NCBI GenBank assembly: GCA_035292785.1
Contig: DATDPK010000052.1
Location: 1 to 49,311 of the forward strand
Direction of reading: 5' to 3'
From: Candidatus Nanoarchaeia archaeon
GTDB lineage: Archaea; Nanobdellota; Nanobdellia; Woesearchaeales; ARS49
DNA length: 49,311 nucleotides
The notes under the pieces: model-generated
The model's database searches: none
Told to the model about the DNA's origin: nothing
Seen by the model: the letters and a program-made list of their open reading frames with translations, nothing else
In this document: positions 33,066 through 38,615 of the stretch, piece after piece
How positions within the stretch are numbered: the first letter of the stretch is position 1
Layout: the number at the start of each line of letters is the position of its first letter
Position numbers and translations under genes: made by a program

Positions 33066-33571
33066 GCAGACACCTTGGCCTTCCTGCCAGTGCCCTCCAA
33101 ACGAAGAACGATTTTACCGCCGACATTTGGAATGCAGACATAACCAGGAGAAGAGACTTCAATATCAGGCAAACTGATGTCCATAACTCGCGGAACAATA
33201 AACGCATTAGAACTTCTAAGCTCACAAGCAGACTGAGCCCAATCAACATTAATTTTTCCGGAAGAAGTCTCAAGAACAGGCCTTGTTTCAGCACAGATAA
33301 TAGGGTCAAAAATACAGAAGCCGGAAAATTTGCCAGGCAAACGAAGCTCTAACTTGCGAACGCTGCCATAATCACGCCTCACGCCCTCAGAAGCAATCTC
33401 CAAATCAGTGCGAAAATCAATCAGCAAAACCTGCTCCTGCCTTTCCATAAAATGCTGAATAGCACGATAACCATAACTAATAATCAGGACAAAAACCAGC
33501 CCTGCAAGTATGAAAATGAAAATCTGGCCGATAATCTGCCCCTTATTTTTTATGCCTGTGCTTTTTGCCAT
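33056..33571 (-). CDS. prepilin-like protein, 171 aa
   Basis: ATG at 33569-33571 (MAKSTGIKNKG|QIIGQIFIFILAGLVFVLII). The longer ORF-track N-terminus lies inside the giant gene. 29-nt overlap with the giant gene. Confidence 0.55.
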   Translation of the reverse strand: MAKSTGIKNKGQIIGQIFIFILAGLVFVLIISYGYRAIQHFMERQEQVLLIDFRTDLEIASEGVRRDYGSVRKLELRLPGKFSGFCIFDPIICAETRPVLETSSGKINVDWAQSACELRSSNAFIVPRVMDISLPDIEVSSPGYVCIPNVGGKIVLRLEGTGRKAKVSAWS

Positions 33572-36500: not shown

Positions 36501-38615
36501 GAAATTATAAGTTCCGTTTAACTGAGAGACAGGAGAAAAGCTGTGAGTTGTCAAAAAGCCAGAAGTAGACTGGGACAAAGCAATAACTTCACCGCCCCTT
36601 GAAATCTCTGCAAAAGAAATTTGGGCAGGCTCGTCAAAAGTCAAGGTAAATGTAGGCGAATTGGCAGAAGTGTAAATAGTACTGCCAATCAATCTACCGC
36701 CTGTAACAGTCAAGTTCAGCAAAGTCGGGCCTTGGCAGTTATCACAAGCGTTTACCGTGATGTTGTTAACAACCTCGCGATTGTTTGCGGCATCAATGCT
36801 GAAAAAGCGAATGTTGTTATTGCCAACAGCAAGGCTTGCCAGCACTCTCTGGCCATCCTTCAATACAAGATTTTTAACAAGCAATTTAGAACTGTTAACC
36901 ACAATAGGGAAAGCGCTGGCAACACTGCAGGAACTTGTCGAGTTCACAACACACAAATAAGTCCTGTAGCCAGGACGAGAGACCATATCAATAGGAGGGG
37001 CTTTCCTGCTCAGCTTATCGAATATTCTAATGTTCAAAAAATCAGTCCTGCCAGCAACACCGGTTGGAATCAAAGAAGTGATAGGAGGGAAATAATCAGC
37101 CTCACACTTATTATCGCTCGCCTTACAATCAGGAGCAACACTTCCTCCAGCATTCTTAACACAACCAGCAGTTTCAAAATACTGGCAGACCTTAATGCCA
37201 CAAACATCACTGCTTGAAGAAGAAAGAGAATTGTCTGAGTTAAGTTTTATGCCCTCGCCCGGGCTGCCGCACTGCAAGAAAGTATAATCAGCACAAGTTG
37301 CCTCATCACAACTCTTGCTGACCTTTGTGTCCTTGTCAAAAAAGCACGGATAATTCTGAGTGGACAAAGCAGTTGATTTTTCCTCACGACAGACATCCCA
37401 CACAGCATTAGTTGCGTTGGCATTCTCTATGCCGGCTGTTCCTTTAGAAGAACACAACGGGCAATTATTGTAACGCTTGTCAACACAAACACCAATACCC
37501 AAATCAGCAAAAACAGGATTCCACGAGCAATCGCCAGCACCGCAATTATCACGCTTACAGGCATCCTCTGACTTGTAATCATAACAACTCATACGAGGGT
37601 CGCAGGAATAACACTTGTTGACAACAGTTGTGCTCCTATCGAAAAAGCAATACTTGGAAACAAGACCTTTTTCACAAGTATCTGGAGTTGAATAAAGACC
37701 GAAAGGATCAAAGCTTACATCGCAAATTTCCTTTTTAACACAACGCGCACCATTTTCATCAGAAATGCAGAACTCCTTATTCTGAGAACTGCAAACCACT
37801 TTTGGAGAAGCCTGGAATAACTTGTTAACATCATTGCACTGCCAAGCCTGATTAAACTTTGTCCCAAACGCCAAAGCCACAGAGCCTGCAAATGAAGAGT
37901 TGAATTCTGAACCAGTATAACTGCCATAACCAAACCTGGCAAGATAATCATAAAACCTGTCGTATGCAAAAGAGGAAAGACAGAAAACAGCGCTGCTCTG
38001 CTGACTGCACTCAATATCACCAGCATTGCCAACAATTGTGGCAGCATCGCCGTCTCCTTGTGCTTTGTAATGGGCGATAACTTGGTAAGTGTAGTCAGTA
38101 TTCCACTCCAAAGCATCGTCTTCATCTGTAAATGAAGTCAAAGAAGGAGAATCAGCAATCTTCTTGAAAGCCTTGCAGTCCTTTCCCTCACAACGGGAAA
38201 CAGCTATATAATCAGCAGGACAAGGAACATTGAAAGACAAATGCAGTTTTCTCTCGCCCTTCACAGGCTTGACGATAATATTCTGAGGAGCAGGCTTGTA
38301 ATTCGGGCTGCCGCACAAACTTATCACACCACAATCAGCAGGACAAGACTGAGCATTTTCAGAAGCCTGGCAGACACCATCACCGCAAGTACCAGCACCA
38401 GGAGCAAAAACAGTCGCATTGCAGTGCTGACCGCACGTGATTAAAGCAGTTGGAGGAGGGCCAATGAAAATATAGCCAAGGGCATCACAAGCTGACTTTG
38501 TAGAAAATGAGCCGTTCTTGACAACAGGGTCACAACAGCAACCAACGCTCTGAGCAGAGCCCTGAATAGCAAAAATCGACAAGATTAGCAAAAATATAAT
38601 CAACTTTGAGGACAT
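33543..38615 (-). CDS. giant (~1690 aa) cysteine-rich type-I membrane surface protein (adhesin-like)
   Basis: ATG at 38613-38615 preceded by AGGTGGTG; the track start at 38651 is TTG. Sec-type signal MSSKLIIFLLILSIFAIQGSAQS. Cys-rich modules, fn3-like segments (YFLRVKAVNRVGLES), 3 x TDIDCGG repeats, TSP3-like Asp-rich repeats. A TM segment (FLWFLLVLLILSALGYGGFLLF) is followed by a 155-aa charged cytoplasmic tail. Confidence 0.85.
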   Translation of the reverse strand: MSSKLIIFLLILSIFAIQGSAQSVGCCCDPVVKNGSFSTKSACDALGYIFIGPPPTALITCGQHCNATVFAPGAGTCGDGVCQASENAQSCPADCGVISLCGSPNYKPAPQNIIVKPVKGERKLHLSFNVPCPADYIAVSRCEGKDCKAFKKIADSPSLTSFTDEDDALEWNTDYTYQVIAHYKAQGDGDAATIVGNAGDIECSQQSSAVFCLSSFAYDRFYDYLARFGYGSYTGSEFNSSFAGSVALAFGTKFNQAWQCNDVNKLFQASPKVVCSSQNKEFCISDENGARCVKKEICDVSFDPFGLYSTPDTCEKGLVSKYCFFDRSTTVVNKCYSCDPRMSCYDYKSEDACKRDNCGAGDCSWNPVFADLGIGVCVDKRYNNCPLCSSKGTAGIENANATNAVWDVCREEKSTALSTQNYPCFFDKDTKVSKSCDEATCADYTFLQCGSPGEGIKLNSDNSLSSSSSDVCGIKVCQYFETAGCVKNAGGSVAPDCKASDNKCEADYFPPITSLIPTGVAGRTDFLNIRIFDKLSRKAPPIDMVSRPGYRTYLCVVNSTSSCSVASAFPIVVNSSKLLVKNLVLKDGQRVLASLAVGNNNIRFFSIDAANNREVVNNITVNACDNCQGPTLLNLTVTGGRLIGSTIYTSANSPTFTLTFDEPAQISFAEISRGGEVIALSQSTSGFLTTHSFSPVSQLNGTYNFSSNAQNQKSILMDPPGISLRLVVDPSLAGVEISPPDGSVLNKTIIDILLNFSRPVMLKSILLLQESFVSPYVKESIPRDITDLFKSADNYTFTAKVGNVTGGKYVIEVNAQGFNLLDVFKQSGFFVATVKPSFRLIKPSFGVTAYSVFSASVETAMPGECRYVYDVPSAPNPDDFVFFKAFSGKNTIHDSPELSIPFGETRGYPLHVYCDMPPFGVSQRSFNITLDPEAPRLIKAFAEPSVIAEQYIPGQNLFVTTLKAQISKPGFCKYSASTSNFEAMDGFFPGFDLYPKQSLSVDVNVTEEKSYSYWVVCKGLNGLTTSPAEVKFSIDTSLPLSVSSNTPEGFGTLNFTIGVIANKHVFCYMGESPDDTTICMGACRSLYAQFQPVTVSSPGRYEYYVKCSTGGGEQSDVIDISVIVDTTPPVMKYVDDTGVLSDPEVSWSQTKVRAAFLAEDADSNISYYLVTLMQDRQVVFSNLVSNVTSGKPFYISTAANGSSFRLVNGKRYFLRVKAVNRVGLESESMDSDGFVVDISQTPPQCLDGDRDGDETDIDCGGEVCDGCEAGMSCLSNPDCATNYCVGNVCKVASCEDGVMNGLESDVDCGGPNCKKCTNDLRCITHNDCSSGYCNLNTNVCTDAPPCYDKVLSEGETDIDCGSSCERCGEGKNCEDSFDCIEGLACDPRVKACTSEPIGDLDEDGISDDMDKCLGTPFGEEVDETGCSLSQKFSLDDGINDKWRMDYFGCIDCPEAAVDADPDNDDLTNLQEFQAGTNPTKKDTDGDWWKDGVELERGYDPLDPASHPPSVLRNFLWFLLVLLILSALGYGGFLLFKAVKEKKPEKVEKPVERPEAAKIAADELARLRSFAKEEALEDKEWIDLEKKIKKKPLTHKKFEAALERLRRIVHKERPVLKDPLKQLRAMLDSLSEERRRDLLGRFKMLRAGLLSKEEMEELFAHLRITAKYYEEHKEELERELAEYGKKHRHKK
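34437..34883 (-). repeat. three tandem ~45-50 aa cysteine-rich modules within the giant protein
   Basis: Residues 1257-1405 of the track ORF. DETDIDCGGEVCDGCEAGMSCLSNPDCATNYCVGNVC / LESDVDCGGPNCKKCTNDLRCITHNDCSSGYCNLNTNVC / GETDIDCGSSCERCGEGKNCEDSFDCIEGLACDPRVKAC. Confidence 0.8.

What the first reader, a model, noticed from the sequence alone, without database searches (positions are those of the whole stretch)
33543..38615. Giant cysteine-rich type-I membrane protein with a 155-aa charged cytoplasmic tail, embedded in the pilin operon
Seen in sequence: the ORF encodes about 1690 aa and has a Sec-type signal (MSSKLIIFLLILSIFAIQGSAQS). The mature N-terminus starts VGCCCDP and is followed by a CGDGVCQASENAQSCPADCG module. 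The long ectodomain has dozens of Cys, many N-x-S/T sequons and fn3-like stretches (about nt 34900-35241; YFLRVKAVNRVGLES). Next come three TDIDCGG modules and Asp-rich DxDxDG-type repeats (DLDEDGISDD, DADPDNDDLTNLQEFQAGTNPTKKDTDGDWWKDGVELERGYDPLDP; nt 34077-34436). A single TM (nt 34011-34076) is followed by a 155-aa K/E/R-rich helical tail (nt 33546-34010). Established knowledge: the Asp-rich repeats resemble thrombospondin type-3-like calcium-binding repeats, and fn3/Ig modules are typical of adhesins and S-layer-associated proteins. Inference: this is a calcium-dependent surface adhesin, or alternatively an S-layer-like coat protein. Its long cytoplasmic tail could connect the outside to an intracellular partner. 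Placement mid-operon between pilin-like genes, with translational overlaps on both sides, argues for co-assembly with the filament proteins.
Basis: partly seen in the sequence, partly recalled or inferred. Interest (0 to 1): 0.8.

Follow-up and report, generated by a model that had tools for sequence, protein, structure and literature searches.

The report
Giant cysteine-rich archaeal surface protein
This gene encodes a real 1,690-residue membrane-anchored surface protein of tiny, uncultured Woesearchaeota archaea; it always sits among pilus-like genes and is probably the anchored stalk of a cell-contact apparatus that nobody has yet studied.

Summary
Window 33543-38615 (-) encodes a 1,690-aa protein. 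It has a Sec signal peptide, 82 cysteines, about nine fn3/Ig-like beta-sandwich domains, three 8-Cys modules, acidic TSP3-like loops, one TM helix and a 155-aa basic tail.

It is not an assembly artefact. More than 60 colinear full-length homologues (30-87% identity) exist, and those that carry a name are from Woesearchaeota or Nanoarchaeota. About 70 of the 82 cysteines are (near-)invariant.

The 320-aa cysteine-rich head defines a family of at least 560 cluster representatives. It has no Pfam match and no PDB sequence match.

The tail is conserved in presence and composition, and partly in sequence. It is cysteine-free in 142 of 149 relatives, which supports an N-out/C-in topology.

The gene lies in an eight-gene operon of overlapping genes with five pilin-like (class III signal peptide) genes. 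That gene order is kept in relatives down to about 31% identity.

Best reading (0.42): the membrane-anchored, disulfide-braced, probably calcium-binding stalk or adhesin of a lineage-specific pilin-derived surface complex. Main rival (0.25): an S-layer or envelope protein. The function is untested. I found no paper on this family in the held library.

The parts
33543..38615 (-). Complete CDS of the giant protein (1,690 aa plus stop codon)
   Evidence: There are 67 homologues of similar length and architecture.
38547..38615 (-). Sec-type signal peptide (residues 1-23).
   Evidence: Hydrophobic N-terminus in the homologues. An A|Q..GCCC pattern is found in 87 of 159 relatives.
38316..38546 (-). 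N-terminal GCCC cysteine module (residues 24-100). It includes the optional CGDGVC..CPADCG insert (nt 38328-38387).
   Evidence: C26/27/28/43/61/65/101 are 98% conserved; the Cys of the insert are about 56% conserved. Model pLDDT is about 57-84. No Pfam hit.
38016..38306 (-). First fn3-fold domain (about residues 104-200)
   Evidence: Strands in the AF2 model. The Foldseek top hits are all fn3, with target-normalised TM-scores up to 0.79.
37050..38015 (-). Cysteine-rich alpha/beta 'head' domain (residues 201-522, 31 Cys), the signature of the family
   Evidence: pLDDT mostly 76-96, dipping to about 71-78 over the last 30 residues. The Cys are invariant. 560 cluster representatives carry it, almost always near the N-terminus of 1.3-3.5 k-aa proteins. 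No Pfam or PDB sequence match.
35241..37049 (-). About six Ig-like beta-sandwich domains (residues 523-1125)
   Evidence: AF2 model with pLDDT mostly 85-97 and all-beta structure. Weak SiiE BIg profile hit at 653-831. Foldseek gives only generic Ig/fn3 arrays. Homologues carry Big_13, Big_3_3 and CopC Pfam hits.
34896..35240 (-). Second fn3-like domain (residues 1126-1240)
   Evidence: Pfam fn3 E=0.007, 17 bits, below the 25-bit cut-off. Titin fn3 profile hits at E=1e-4. Beta strands in the model.
34437..34895 (-). Three tandem 8-Cys modules (residues 1241-1393): C-x13-C-x3/4-C-x2-C-x5-C-x5-C-x4/5-C-x4/6-C, each containing E[TS]D[IV]DCG[GS]
   Evidence: Sequence. The Cys are 92-100% conserved. 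pLDDT is 84-94. No Pfam or PDB hit.
34077..34436 (-). Acidic TSP3-like (DxDxDG) loops and the conserved juxtamembrane DPxSHPPS motif (residues 1394-1513)
   Evidence: This copy scores TSP_3 13.4 bits and TSP3_bac 13.1 bits, below the 25-bit cut-off; orthologue P0011 scores 30.5 bits. PF18884 is precomputed for many homologues. Family consensus.
34011..34076 (-). Single transmembrane helix (residues 1514-1535)
   Evidence: Hydropathy peak in nearly every homologue. AF2 helix at residues 1510-1537.
33546..34010 (-). Basic, cysteine-free cytoplasmic tail (residues 1536-1690). Residues 1618-1689 form a confidently predicted helical domain.
   Evidence: Composition and pI 9.6. Alignment A6 shows the conserved motifs ELxKLRxFAKKEE, WIxLEKxIKKKPLP, ALERLRxIA and KLxITAxYYxxHKxELExEL. 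pLDDT is 76-88 at the C-terminal end. No Pfam or PDB relative.
41040..42716 (-). First gene of the operon: 558-aa secreted or anchored protein with 26 Cys. Its orthologues are 962-1,138 aa and carry a LamG_3 lectin-type domain.
   Evidence: No Pfam hit for the window copy.
39928..41049 (-). 373-aa Sec-secreted protein with 12 Cys; a conserved operon member
38600..39931 (-). 443-aa pilin-like protein (MKA|QITMFIIIGIMIV...). Its stop overlaps the giant gene's start by 16 nt.
33056..33571 (-). 171-aa pilin-like protein (..NKG|QIIGQIFIFILAGLVFV). Its start overlaps the giant gene's end by 29 nt.
32022..33065 (-). 347-aa pilin-like protein (KKG|FELQFHWIFIMIAGA)
   Evidence: The [KR][GA]|[FIV]E[LM]QF motif is found in 109 of 120 homologues. 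All named homologues are Woesearchaeota or Nanoarchaeia, and none has a Pfam hit.
31546..32022 (-). 158-aa pilin-like protein (MRA|QIKMFETVGILVV)
   Evidence: Weak BasB N-terminal hit.
31062..31556 (-). 164-aa pilin-like protein (SRA|QMEIFGLVIIV); last gene of the overlapping operon
   Evidence: Weak PilV N-terminal hit.
28462..30135 (-). 557-aa kinase-fold (RIO/APH-like) protein in conserved synteny. It is a possible cytoplasmic partner, which is inference only.
   Evidence: RIO1 E=0.007. The orthologue in L002 carries an APH Pfam hit. The motifs DAHPENW and IDCE are visible in the sequence. Synteny.
22263..27937 (-). Second run of eight class-III-like small genes, including a 110-aa candidate major pilin (27605-27937)
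   Evidence: No Pfam hits.

Best explanation
The gene encodes the signature subunit of a cell-surface module specific to Woesearchaeota/Nanoarchaeia.

**What the protein looks like.** It is a type-I membrane glycoprotein. The ectodomain is acidic (pI 4.6) and could be braced by up to 41 disulfides. Starting from the tip furthest from the membrane, it runs:
1. an N-terminal GCCC cysteine module;
2. an fn3 domain;
3. a novel 320-aa cysteine-rich head;
4. about seven beta-sandwich domains;
5. three 8-Cys modules;
6. acidic TSP3-type loops, probably calcium-binding, next to the membrane.

A single TM helix then leads to a conserved, basic, helical cytoplasmic domain.

**How it probably works (inferred).** The protein is translated from one overlapping eight-gene operon. 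The other seven genes encode five pilin-like proteins (class III signal peptides), a secreted cysteine-rich protein and a lectin-family (LamG) protein. I infer that these products assemble in fixed proportions at the membrane. The pilin-like subunits would form a short pilus-like fibre or a base. The giant protein would act as the anchored stalk that presents the cysteine-rich head, and perhaps the lectin partner, to another cell or surface. The tail would tie the complex to a cytoplasmic partner.

**Shown here:** the architecture, the topology proxies, conservation of the family, conserved gene order, and translational coupling.

**Inferred only:** complex formation, calcium binding, adhesion or host contact, and the role of the tail.
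For: **Architecture.**

**Topology.** There is a K-rich flank after the TM helix. The cysteine split is 56-280 Cys outside against none in 142 of 149 tails. Tails of at least 80 aa occur in 145 of 149 relatives. All sequons lie in the ectodomain.

**Real, constrained family.**
- 67 homologues of similar length and architecture at 29-87% identity.
- Invariant Cys.
- The head occurs in 560 cluster representatives.
- Named members are only Woesearchaeota or Nanoarchaeota.

**Coupling to the pilin-like genes.**
- All eight genes overlap by 1-29 nt.
- The same gene order is found in L001 and L002. It is also found in relatives with only 31-43% identity in the head, including 2,166-aa to 3,192-aa variants.
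- The class III motifs [KR][GA]|Q or [KR][GA]|[FIV]E are conserved in the orthologues.

**Rate of evolution.** The giant (39-56% identity) and the pilin-like proteins (36-68%) diverge no faster than neighbouring housekeeping genes: RNase P p30 46-50%, ThiI 37-40%. This fits a multi-partner machine.

**Lectin partner.** The orthologues of the first operon gene carry LamG_3.

**Background.** Pili mediate cell-to-cell contact of ultra-small groundwater prokaryotes (PMC9938205). Archaeal type IV pilus (T4P) loci can contain large, C-terminally anchored, cysteine-bearing proteins (PMC4858521).
Against: - There is no experimental or abundance data.
- No pilus assembly ATPase, TadC platform or prepilin peptidase was found in the 49-kb window. 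Filament assembly is therefore not demonstrated.
- A protein anchored by a TM helix and carrying a 155-aa tail cannot ride on an extending pilus tip.
- Slow evolution is unusual for host-specific adhesins.
- The head could not be fold-searched on its own, because fn3 hits filled the Foldseek lists. A known binding or enzymatic fold could have been missed.
- The TSP3 match of this copy is below threshold.
Confidence: 0.42

Rival explanations
1. It is the main S-layer or envelope glycoprotein of these archaea, or its anchoring stalk. In this reading it is a lattice or canopy protein held in the membrane by its C-terminal helix, and the neighbouring pilin-like proteins are envelope-associated anchors comparable to FlaF/FlaG.
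For: - It has the classic S-layer-like features: signal peptide, acidic ectodomain, Ig/fn3 arrays, enriched and partly conserved sequons, and a C-terminal TM helix.
- It appears as one conserved locus in a housekeeping neighbourhood in every relative examined.
- Comparative genomics of archaeal T4P loci has labelled large C-terminally anchored proteins 'S-layer-like' (PMC4858521).
- Proposed DPANN S-layer proteins are also Ig-rich glycoproteins (bioRxiv 10.1101/2023.10.27.564410).
- The Deinococcus HPI S-layer appears among the weak Foldseek hits.
Against: - The gene sits mid-operon and overlaps both neighbours, which suggests fixed proportions rather than a large excess of one product.
- A conserved 155-aa cytoplasmic domain is not needed for an anchor.
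- 82 invariant Cys are atypical for S-layer proteins (my knowledge).
- Its housekeeping-like rate of change contrasts with the fast divergence of S-layer proteins noted.
- No sequence or fold match to any solved archaeal S-layer protein ranked above generic Ig arrays.
Confidence: 0.25
2. It is an adhesion receptor that signals across the membrane, loosely integrin-like. The ectodomain senses contact, and the conserved tail passes this on to, or is controlled by, cytoplasmic factors such as the neighbouring kinase-fold protein.
For: - The tail is conserved, folded, basic and cysteine-free. It has invariant Trp, Tyr and Leu positions and a conserved YY motif.
- A kinase-fold gene and two DNA-binding regulators (AbrB/MazE-type and AsnC) lie in conserved synteny next to the operon.
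- 8-Cys modules next to the membrane followed by a TM helix and a tail is an arrangement also seen in integrin beta subunits (analogy from my knowledge).
Against: - No known signalling or docking domain was found in the tail.
- The kinase gene is a separate transcription unit, and its orthologue is weak or missing in some loci.
- More distant clades replace the tail domain with a lysine-rich tail.
- No homology to integrins was detected.
Confidence: 0.12
3. It is a PilY1-like pilus-associated adhesin. It would be released from its anchor, for example by cleavage near the conserved DPxSHPPS motif, and carried on a filament primed by the four or five minor-pilin-like proteins.
For: - The gene arrangement mirrors the bacterial fimU-pilVWXY1E operon: a large, possibly calcium-binding protein among four or five minor-pilin-like genes of unequal size.
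- There is a conserved juxtamembrane motif.
- A candidate major pilin and further pilin-like genes lie nearby.
Against: - No PilY1/PilC beta-propeller, vWA or DUF2341 domain was found.
- A conserved cytoplasmic domain would be wasted if the ectodomain were shed.
- No protease or assembly genes are in the locus.
Confidence: 0.08
4. It is an assembly or annotation artefact: a chimeric join or a run-on ORF.
For: The sequence comes from a metagenome-derived contig. One related 1.1-kb contig (L032) does look chimeric.
Against: More than 60 independent colinear homologues of the same length come from NCBI, JGI, ENA and Logan. One is 87% identical and 1,692 aa long. Conservation is even along the whole length.
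Confidence: 0.01

Closest known systems
Large C-terminally anchored 'S-layer-like' proteins predicted in archaeal type IV pilus loci (Makarova, Koonin & Albers 2016, PMC4858521)
   Same: Both are large secreted proteins with a C-terminal TM helix and conserved cysteines, encoded among several class-III-signal (minor-pilin-like) genes.
   Different: - No sequence relationship was shown.
- Those loci include the secretion ATPase and TadC, which were not seen in this window.
- This protein adds a conserved 155-aa cytoplasmic domain, a novel cysteine-rich head, 8-Cys modules and TSP3-like loops.
- Its lineage (Woesearchaeota/Nanoarchaeia) was not covered in that work.
Bacterial PilY1 with the minor-pilin operon (fimU-pilVWXY1E)
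   Same: Both are large surface proteins with a calcium-binding motif, encoded in the middle of four or five minor-pilin genes. For PilY1 the products are expected to assemble together (my knowledge; PMC4858521 draws the same analogy for archaea).
   Different: PilY1 has no TM anchor or cytoplasmic tail, and it carries a C-terminal beta-propeller with or without a vWA domain. None of these domains was detected here.
Archaeal S-layer glycoproteins and stalks (Haloferax csg, Sulfolobus SlaA/SlaB, and the candidates NEQ300 and MJ1_0160/MJ1_0707)
   Same: [quoted passage not shown]
   Different: Those have few or no conserved cysteines, no long conserved cytoplasmic domain and (my knowledge) are usually not translationally coupled inside a multi-gene operon. 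They also diverge fast, whereas this family diverges slowly. No detectable homology.
Giant calcium-binding bacterial adhesins with BIg arrays (Salmonella SiiE, Bap/RTX adhesins)
   Same: A rod of repeated Ig-like domains with acidic calcium-type motifs. There are weak profile and fold hits to SiiE and to Bap.
   Different: Those are secreted by type I systems, are not TM-anchored, are cysteine-poor, and are built from many near-identical repeats. Here each domain is distinct and conserved position by position.
Thrombospondin type 3 / bacterial TSP3 repeats (PF02412, PF18884)
   Same: DxDxDGxxDxxE-type acidic loops. Orthologues pass the Pfam threshold.
   Different: There are only about three degenerate repeats, and this copy is below threshold. 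Calcium binding is untested.

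Membership tests
Type-I (N-out/C-in) single-pass membrane protein | Cleavable N-terminal signal peptide, one TM helix near the C-terminus, and a cytoplasmic C-terminal segment | tested here: met
   - Hydropathy shows one N-terminal and one C-terminal hydrophobic segment in nearly every homologue.
- There is a K-rich flank after the TM helix.
- Cysteine split: 0 Cys in 142 of 149 tails against 56-280 outside.
- All sequons lie outside.
- These are sequence proxies. DeepTMHMM and SignalP were not available.
Fibronectin type III (PF00041) | Sequence score above the Pfam gathering threshold | tested here: not met
   17 bits against 25 for residues 1158-1228. The N-terminal fn3 gave no Pfam hit at all.
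Fibronectin type III (PF00041) | Seven-stranded fn3 beta-sandwich fold | tested here: met
   The Foldseek top 50 for the 24-530 model are all fn3, with probability 1.0 and target-normalised TM-scores up to 0.79. Titin fn3 profile hits at 1140-1245.
Bacterial TSP3 repeat (PF18884) / TSP type 3 (PF02412) | Repeat score above the gathering threshold | tested here: inconclusive
   The window copy scores 13.1 and 13.4 bits, below 25. Orthologue P0011 scores 30.5 bits at the corresponding position. PF18884 is precomputed for about 25 homologues.
Bacterial TSP3 repeat (PF18884) / TSP type 3 (PF02412) | Calcium coordination by the DxDxDG loops | not testable with these tools
   Needs metal-binding assays or an experimental structure.
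Type IV pilin-like proteins (the five neighbouring genes) | Class III signal peptide: a short basic leader, [KR][GA] at -2/-1, then about 20 hydrophobic residues | tested here: met
   - The motif is present in all five genes and conserved in orthologues at 30-50% identity.
- 109 of 120 members of the 347-aa family carry it.
- There are only weak BasB and PilV N-terminal hits.
Type IV pilin-like proteins (the five neighbouring genes) | Processing by a prepilin peptidase and assembly by an ATPase/TadC machine | not tested
   No such genes were found in the 49-kb window. The rest of the genome was not available.
PilY1/PilC-type pilus tip adhesin | C-terminal PilY1 beta-propeller (PF05567), or vWA/DUF2341 domains | tested here: not met
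   No such Pfam or NCBIfam hit. The models show only beta-sandwiches, cysteine modules and helices.
Archaeal S-layer protein | Forms the regular 2-D envelope lattice and is among the most abundant proteins | not testable with these tools
   No expression or imaging data. There are indirect arguments both ways.
Archaeal S-layer protein | Homology to a known S-layer family | tested here: not met
   No PDB sequence hit to archaeal S-layer proteins. Foldseek gives only generic Ig arrays.
Archaeosortase substrate (PGF-CTERM and similar) | Sorting motif, TM helix and a short basic cluster at the extreme C-terminus | tested here: not met
   The TM helix is followed by 155 residues, and the median tail in the family is 153 aa.

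The most novel reading that the evidence does not exclude
The operon encodes a previously unrecognised, order-wide cell-contact organelle of Woesearchaeota/Nanoarchaeia. A pilin-derived fibre or base would be built around a giant transmembrane receptor. The receptor's cysteine-rich head, a fold with no detected relative, would engage the partner cell. Its conserved cytoplasmic domain would couple that contact to the cell interior, for example through the adjacent kinase-fold protein. This would be functionally analogous to eukaryotic adhesion receptors, and it is a candidate for the long-sought attachment or feeding apparatus of these DPANN episymbionts.
Probability: 0.12. Interest if true: 0.85.

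Novelty: new variant of a known kind. Interest (0 to 1): 0.55.

Why it matters
Woesearchaeota and their relatives are abundant, uncultured, ultra-small archaea, generally predicted to be symbionts that depend on other cells. How they build their envelope and attach to partners is unknown.

This protein and its operon are:
- conserved across the lineage;
- evolving as slowly as neighbouring housekeeping genes;
- made almost entirely of unannotated proteins.

That makes the operon a concrete, testable candidate for either the envelope scaffold or the contact apparatus. Its stable, cysteine-rich head would also be a useful marker or antigen for imaging and enrichment.

If it turns out to be only an S-layer-type protein, it is still the first family-level description of one for this group. 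In that case it is of ordinary interest.

Tried and rejected
1. **Pfam and NCBIfam on the whole protein and on excised pieces** (tail, 8-Cys modules, N-terminal module, TSP3 region). Only sub-threshold fn3 and TSP3 hits, plus chance-level hits such as Vps4_C at E=0.045.

2. **PDB sequence searches.** I used the single sequence, the full-family profile, the head profile, the tail profile and the 8-Cys segment. Only weak fn3 and SiiE hits came back. The rest is noise: Factor Xa E=0.08, uteroglobin E=0.07, ATP synthase b.

4. **Foldseek of the 500-1690 model.** Only generic multi-Ig and fn3 arrays (leptin receptor, mastigoneme, alpha-2-macroglobulin, titin) at TM about 0.1. This is not informative beyond 'beta-sandwich rod'.

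5. **hhalign of the head profile against the two upstream cysteine-rich operon proteins.** No relationship.

6. **Tail profile against the 5.8-billion-protein set.** The search was swamped by low-complexity candidates. The only hit, P0339, is a GPN-GTPase/tail hybrid on a 1.1-kb contig and is probably chimeric.

7. **Genome scan with the 20-sequence head alignment.** It succeeded with a 6-sequence alignment.

8. **Literature searches on Woesearchaeota or DPANN with pilin, cysteine-rich, thrombospondin or surface protein.** No paper on this family in the held library.

9. **An ESCRT MIM-like reading of the repeated LxxLRxI tail motif.** I considered it and dropped it, because the spacing does not fit the MIM1 consensus (my comparison, from memory).

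10. **Codon-usage proxies for expression.** Not attempted, because the window has too few reference genes.

Full report

Yes. The minus-strand ORF 33543..38651 is open for 1,702 codons. The ATG at 38615 gives a 1,690-aa protein starting MSSKLIIFLL. That ATG is preceded by an SD-like AGGTGGTG, and the start matches the N-termini of the homologues.

- a hydrophobic signal followed by GCCCDP;
- the CGDGVC...CPADCG module;
- 82 cysteines;
- 20 N-x-S/T sequons, all extracellular, against 12.5 +/- 3.1 after shuffling;
- an fn3-like stretch at residues 1126-1240;
- three E[TS]D[IV]DCG[GS] modules;
- DxDxDG-type acidic loops;
- one TM helix (residues 1514-1535);
- a 155-aa tail with 28% K+R and 21% D+E.

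The gene overlaps its upstream neighbour by 16 nt and its downstream neighbour by 29 nt.

It is not an assembly artefact. The search returned 67 homologues of similar length and architecture at 29-87% identity from NCBI, JGI, ENA and Logan. One is 87% identical and 1,692 aa long. They are colinear with the window protein, and conservation is even along the whole length.

Small corrections:
- There is a second fn3 near the N-terminus.
- The CGDGVC module is an insert present in only about 56% of homologues.

**2. Anatomy**

Two AlphaFold2 models built on the family alignment are confident:
- residues 24-530: mean pLDDT 86.5, pTM 0.68;
- residues 500-1690: mean pLDDT 86.4, pTM 0.65.

From the N-terminus, which lies furthest from the membrane, the protein consists of:
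1. a small GCCC cysteine module;
2. an fn3 domain at about residues 105-200, where all Foldseek top hits are fn3;
3. a 320-residue mixed alpha/beta cysteine-rich head (201-522, 31 Cys);
4. about seven beta-sandwich domains (about 523-1240), the last one fn3-like;
5. three tandem 8-Cys modules (1241-1393);
6. acidic TSP3-like loops (1394-1513) ending in a conserved DPxSHPPS motif;
7. the TM helix;
8. the tail.

Support for the beta-sandwich stalk comes from weak profile hits to titin fn3 and to SiiE BIg domains. Foldseek returns only generic Ig/fn3 arrays.

In the tail, the first about 80 residues are predicted with low confidence. The last about 70 form a confident helical domain.

About 70 of the 82 cysteines are invariant or nearly so across relatives down to 30% identity. 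The total is even, so up to 41 disulfides are possible (inference). The ectodomain has pI 4.6 and the tail pI 9.6.

The head, the 8-Cys modules and the tail have no Pfam, NCBIfam or PDB sequence match.

The TSP3 signal is real at family level. PF18884 is precomputed for many homologues, and orthologue P0011 scores 30.5 bits against a 25-bit cut-off. The window's own copy is below threshold at 13 bits.

**3. Topology and the tail**

No topology predictor was available, so I used sequence proxies. Among 166 relatives of at least 1,300 aa:
- 149 have a C-terminal TM helix;
- 145 of those have a tail of at least 80 aa (median 153);
- 142 tails contain no cysteine at all, whereas the ectodomains hold 56-280.

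Taken with the lysine-rich flank after the helix and the restriction of sequons to the ectodomain, this supports an N-out/C-in topology.

The tail is conserved in sequence as well as in composition. Alignment A6 shows these motifs:
- ELxKLRxFAKKEE;
- WIxLEKxIKKKPLP;
- ALERLRxIA;
- PLxRLR;
- a C-terminal GxLTxxExxELxxKLxITAxYYxxHKxELExEL domain.

Six positions in A6 are invariant. More distant clades carry a shorter, lysine-rich tail that ends in an amphipathic ..LxKLRKIKK motif. Seven relatives have a 3-4-Cys YHKxxC...CxxC ending.

**4. Family and taxonomy**

A profile of the head alone was searched against 1.84 billion cluster representatives. It finds 560 proteins at E <= 1e-3 and 134 at E <= 1e-30. 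The head is almost always at about position 190-600 of proteins 1,300-3,500 aa long. Every named member is from Candidatus Woesearchaeota, Nanoarchaeota or Nanoarchaeia.

Several TPA MAGs that carry the locus are titled 'uncultured Methanosarcinales'. This is probably a labelling problem.

The rest of the window is an ordinary archaeal chromosome segment with aminoacyl-tRNA synthetases, RadA, ribosomal protein S2 and an RNase P subunit.

**5. Genomic context**

The gene is the fourth of eight genes that all overlap by 1-29 nt:

| Position | Product | N-terminal feature |
|---|---|---|
| 1 | 558 aa, 26 Cys | orthologues carry a LamG_3 lectin-type domain |
| 2 | 373 aa, 12 Cys | Sec signal |
| 3 | 443 aa | KA\|QITMF |
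| 4 | the giant | Sec signal |
| 5 | 171 aa | KG\|QIIGQIF |
| 6 | 347 aa | KG\|FELQFHWIF |
| 7 | 158 aa | RA\|QIKMFE |
| 8 | 164 aa | RA\|QMEIFG |

The five proteins with [KR][GA]| leaders followed by about 20 hydrophobic residues have the form of archaeal class III (prepilin-type) signals. The motif is conserved in orthologues at 30-50% identity and in 109 of 120 members of the 347-aa family.

The same gene order recurs in L001 and L002, where the giant is about 40% identical. It also recurs in relatives whose heads are only 31-43% identical, including variants of 2,166 aa and of 3,131-3,192 aa with up to 280 cysteines.

Flanking the operon, in conserved synteny, are:
- a kinase-fold protein (RIO/APH-like);
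- an AbrB/MazE-type regulator;
- an AsnC regulator;
- a second run of eight class-III-like small genes, including a 110-aa candidate major pilin.

I found no pilus ATPase, TadC or prepilin peptidase in the window.

**6. A notable quantitative point**

Relative to the window, the orthologues compare as follows:

| Protein | Identity to the window orthologue |
|---|---|
| Giant | 39-56% |
| Four small pilin-like proteins | 36-68% |
| RNase P p30 | 46-50% |
| ThiI | 37-40% |
| Pseudouridine synthase | 49-65% |

Adhesins, pilins and S-layer proteins usually diverge much faster than this (established knowledge; also stated in the paper read). This points to constraint along the whole length, as expected for a multi-partner assembly.

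**7. Interpretation**

*Best-supported reading (0.42).* The protein is the membrane-anchored stalk or adhesin subunit of a lineage-specific surface complex. It is disulfide-braced and probably calcium-binding. It would be built together with the pilin-like proteins and the secreted cysteine-rich and lectin-family partners. The conserved tail would link it to something in the cytoplasm.
- Shown: the architecture, the topology proxies, family conservation, conserved synteny and translational coupling.
- Inferred: physical assembly, calcium binding, adhesion or host contact, and the tail's partner.

*Main rival (0.25).* It is an S-layer or envelope protein. Signal peptide, acidic Ig-rich glycoprotein and C-terminal anchor all fit. 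Comparative genomics has already labelled such proteins in archaeal T4P loci 'S-layer-like' (PMC4858521). Against this reading are the mid-operon coupling, the conserved cytoplasmic domain, the 82 invariant cysteines and the slow divergence.

*Other readings.*
- Signalling-receptor reading: 0.12.
- PilY1-like shed-adhesin reading: 0.08.
- Artefact: excluded.

**8. Comparison with what is known**

It works most like the large anchored proteins of archaeal T4P loci and, by analogy, like PilY1 with its minor pilins. It is a member of neither family:
- No PilY1 domains were detected.
- No homology to solved S-layer proteins was found.
- It is not an archaeosortase substrate, because 155 residues follow the TM helix.

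The fn3 fold is confirmed structurally, but the sequence score is below the Pfam threshold. TSP3 membership holds for orthologues and is inconclusive for this copy. Searches of the held literature found no description of this family.

**9. Limits**
As a result the cysteine-rich head could not be fold-searched alone, and fn3 hits dominated the output. 'No structural relative' is therefore untested rather than shown.
- No coordinates were available to check disulfide geometry or overall shape.
- No expression data, no multimer prediction and no whole genome were available.

**10. Verdict**

This is a real, accurately described feature. It belongs to a large, uncharacterised, lineage-specific family embedded in a conserved operon of pilin-like genes. 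It is a new variant of a known kind: a large anchored surface protein associated with type-IV-pilin-like genes. Its unusual features are a novel invariant-cysteine head, a conserved cytoplasmic domain and housekeeping-like conservation. Interest is moderate to high for DPANN cell biology. The function remains inferred.

Noticed in passing
window 22263-27937 (- strand): There is a second run of eight small genes whose products all begin with class-III-like leaders: KKG|, KRG|, RKG| or KRA|Q, then about 20 hydrophobic residues. It includes a 110-aa candidate major pilin at 27605-27937. None has a Pfam hit. With the five in the giant's operon, about 13 pilin-like genes lie within roughly 20 kb. 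No assembly ATPase or TadC is in the window.
   Followed up: partly
window 28462-30135 (-) and 30184-31071 (+): A 557-aa kinase-fold protein (RIO1 E=0.007; the orthologue in L002 carries an APH hit; DAHPENW and IDCE motifs) lies next to the operon. Beside it is a 295-aa protein with an AbrB/MazE-type N-terminal domain. Both are in conserved synteny in many relatives. The regulator gene converges on the last operon gene and overlaps it by 10 nt.
   Followed up: partly
window 9120-16035 (- strand): This is a block of multi-TM proteins. One has PMT/PMT_2 (GT-C glycosyltransferase) hits. Two others (440 and 496 aa) have no Pfam hit. There are also two membrane-anchored proteins of 703 and 213 aa that look like paralogues and have no Pfam hit. 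This may be a glycosylation or envelope-biogenesis locus.
   Followed up: no
L032 52-567 (protein P0339): On a 1.1-kb NCBI contig, a 171-aa ORF joins the N-terminal 85 residues of a GPN-loop GTPase to the C-terminal about 85 residues of the giant's tail domain. The usual downstream pilin-like gene follows it. This is most likely a chimeric assembly. If it were real, it would place the tail domain in the cytoplasm.
   Followed up: partly
L029 9299-18877; L030 9203-18598; L028 9278-15778: Expanded relatives of 2,166 aa (82 Cys, L028) and 3,131-3,192 aa (268-280 Cys, L029/L030) keep the downstream pilin-like genes. In L029 and L030 a second paralogue (1,612-1,797 aa) lies upstream in the same locus with a similar ..CC[VL]NPNAIERVCAS N-terminus.
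   Followed up: partly
tails of P0066, P0067, P0113, P0126, P0132, P0162, P0192: Seven relatives have 3-4 cysteines in the otherwise cysteine-free tail. The two inspected directly (P0066, P0067) end in a YHKxxC...CS/xVC pattern that resembles an Ada-type zinc-binding motif (recalled from memory, not tested).
   Followed up: no
window 34077-34100 (residues about 1503-1510) and the family consensus: A DPxSHPPS motif immediately outside the TM helix is conserved across the family. It could be a processing or hinge site. No evidence either way.
   Followed up: no
window 42746-43261 (+): A 171-aa membrane-anchored protein with 12 Cys is transcribed divergently from the operon. The window copy is detectably similar to the L001 counterpart (a191; 25% identity, E=2e-8), and a like-sized 12-Cys gene (b200) sits at the same position in L002. 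No Pfam hit.
   Followed up: no
L003-L008, L012, L013, L022, L025, L029 (record titles): Many TPA MAG records that carry this Woesearchaeal locus are titled 'uncultured Methanosarcinales archaeon'. The neighbouring genes and the closest named relatives are Woesearchaeota or Nanoarchaeia, so the titles look like placeholder or mis-assigned taxonomy.
   Followed up: no
L001 4505-7393; L017 5155-6981 (orthologues of window 41040-42716): The upstream LamG-family operon protein also carries a GGGCC motif about 35-45 residues into the called protein, just after its signal peptide, in some relatives. This echoes the giant's GCCC start, so a shared role for an N-terminal CC motif is possible.
   Followed up: no
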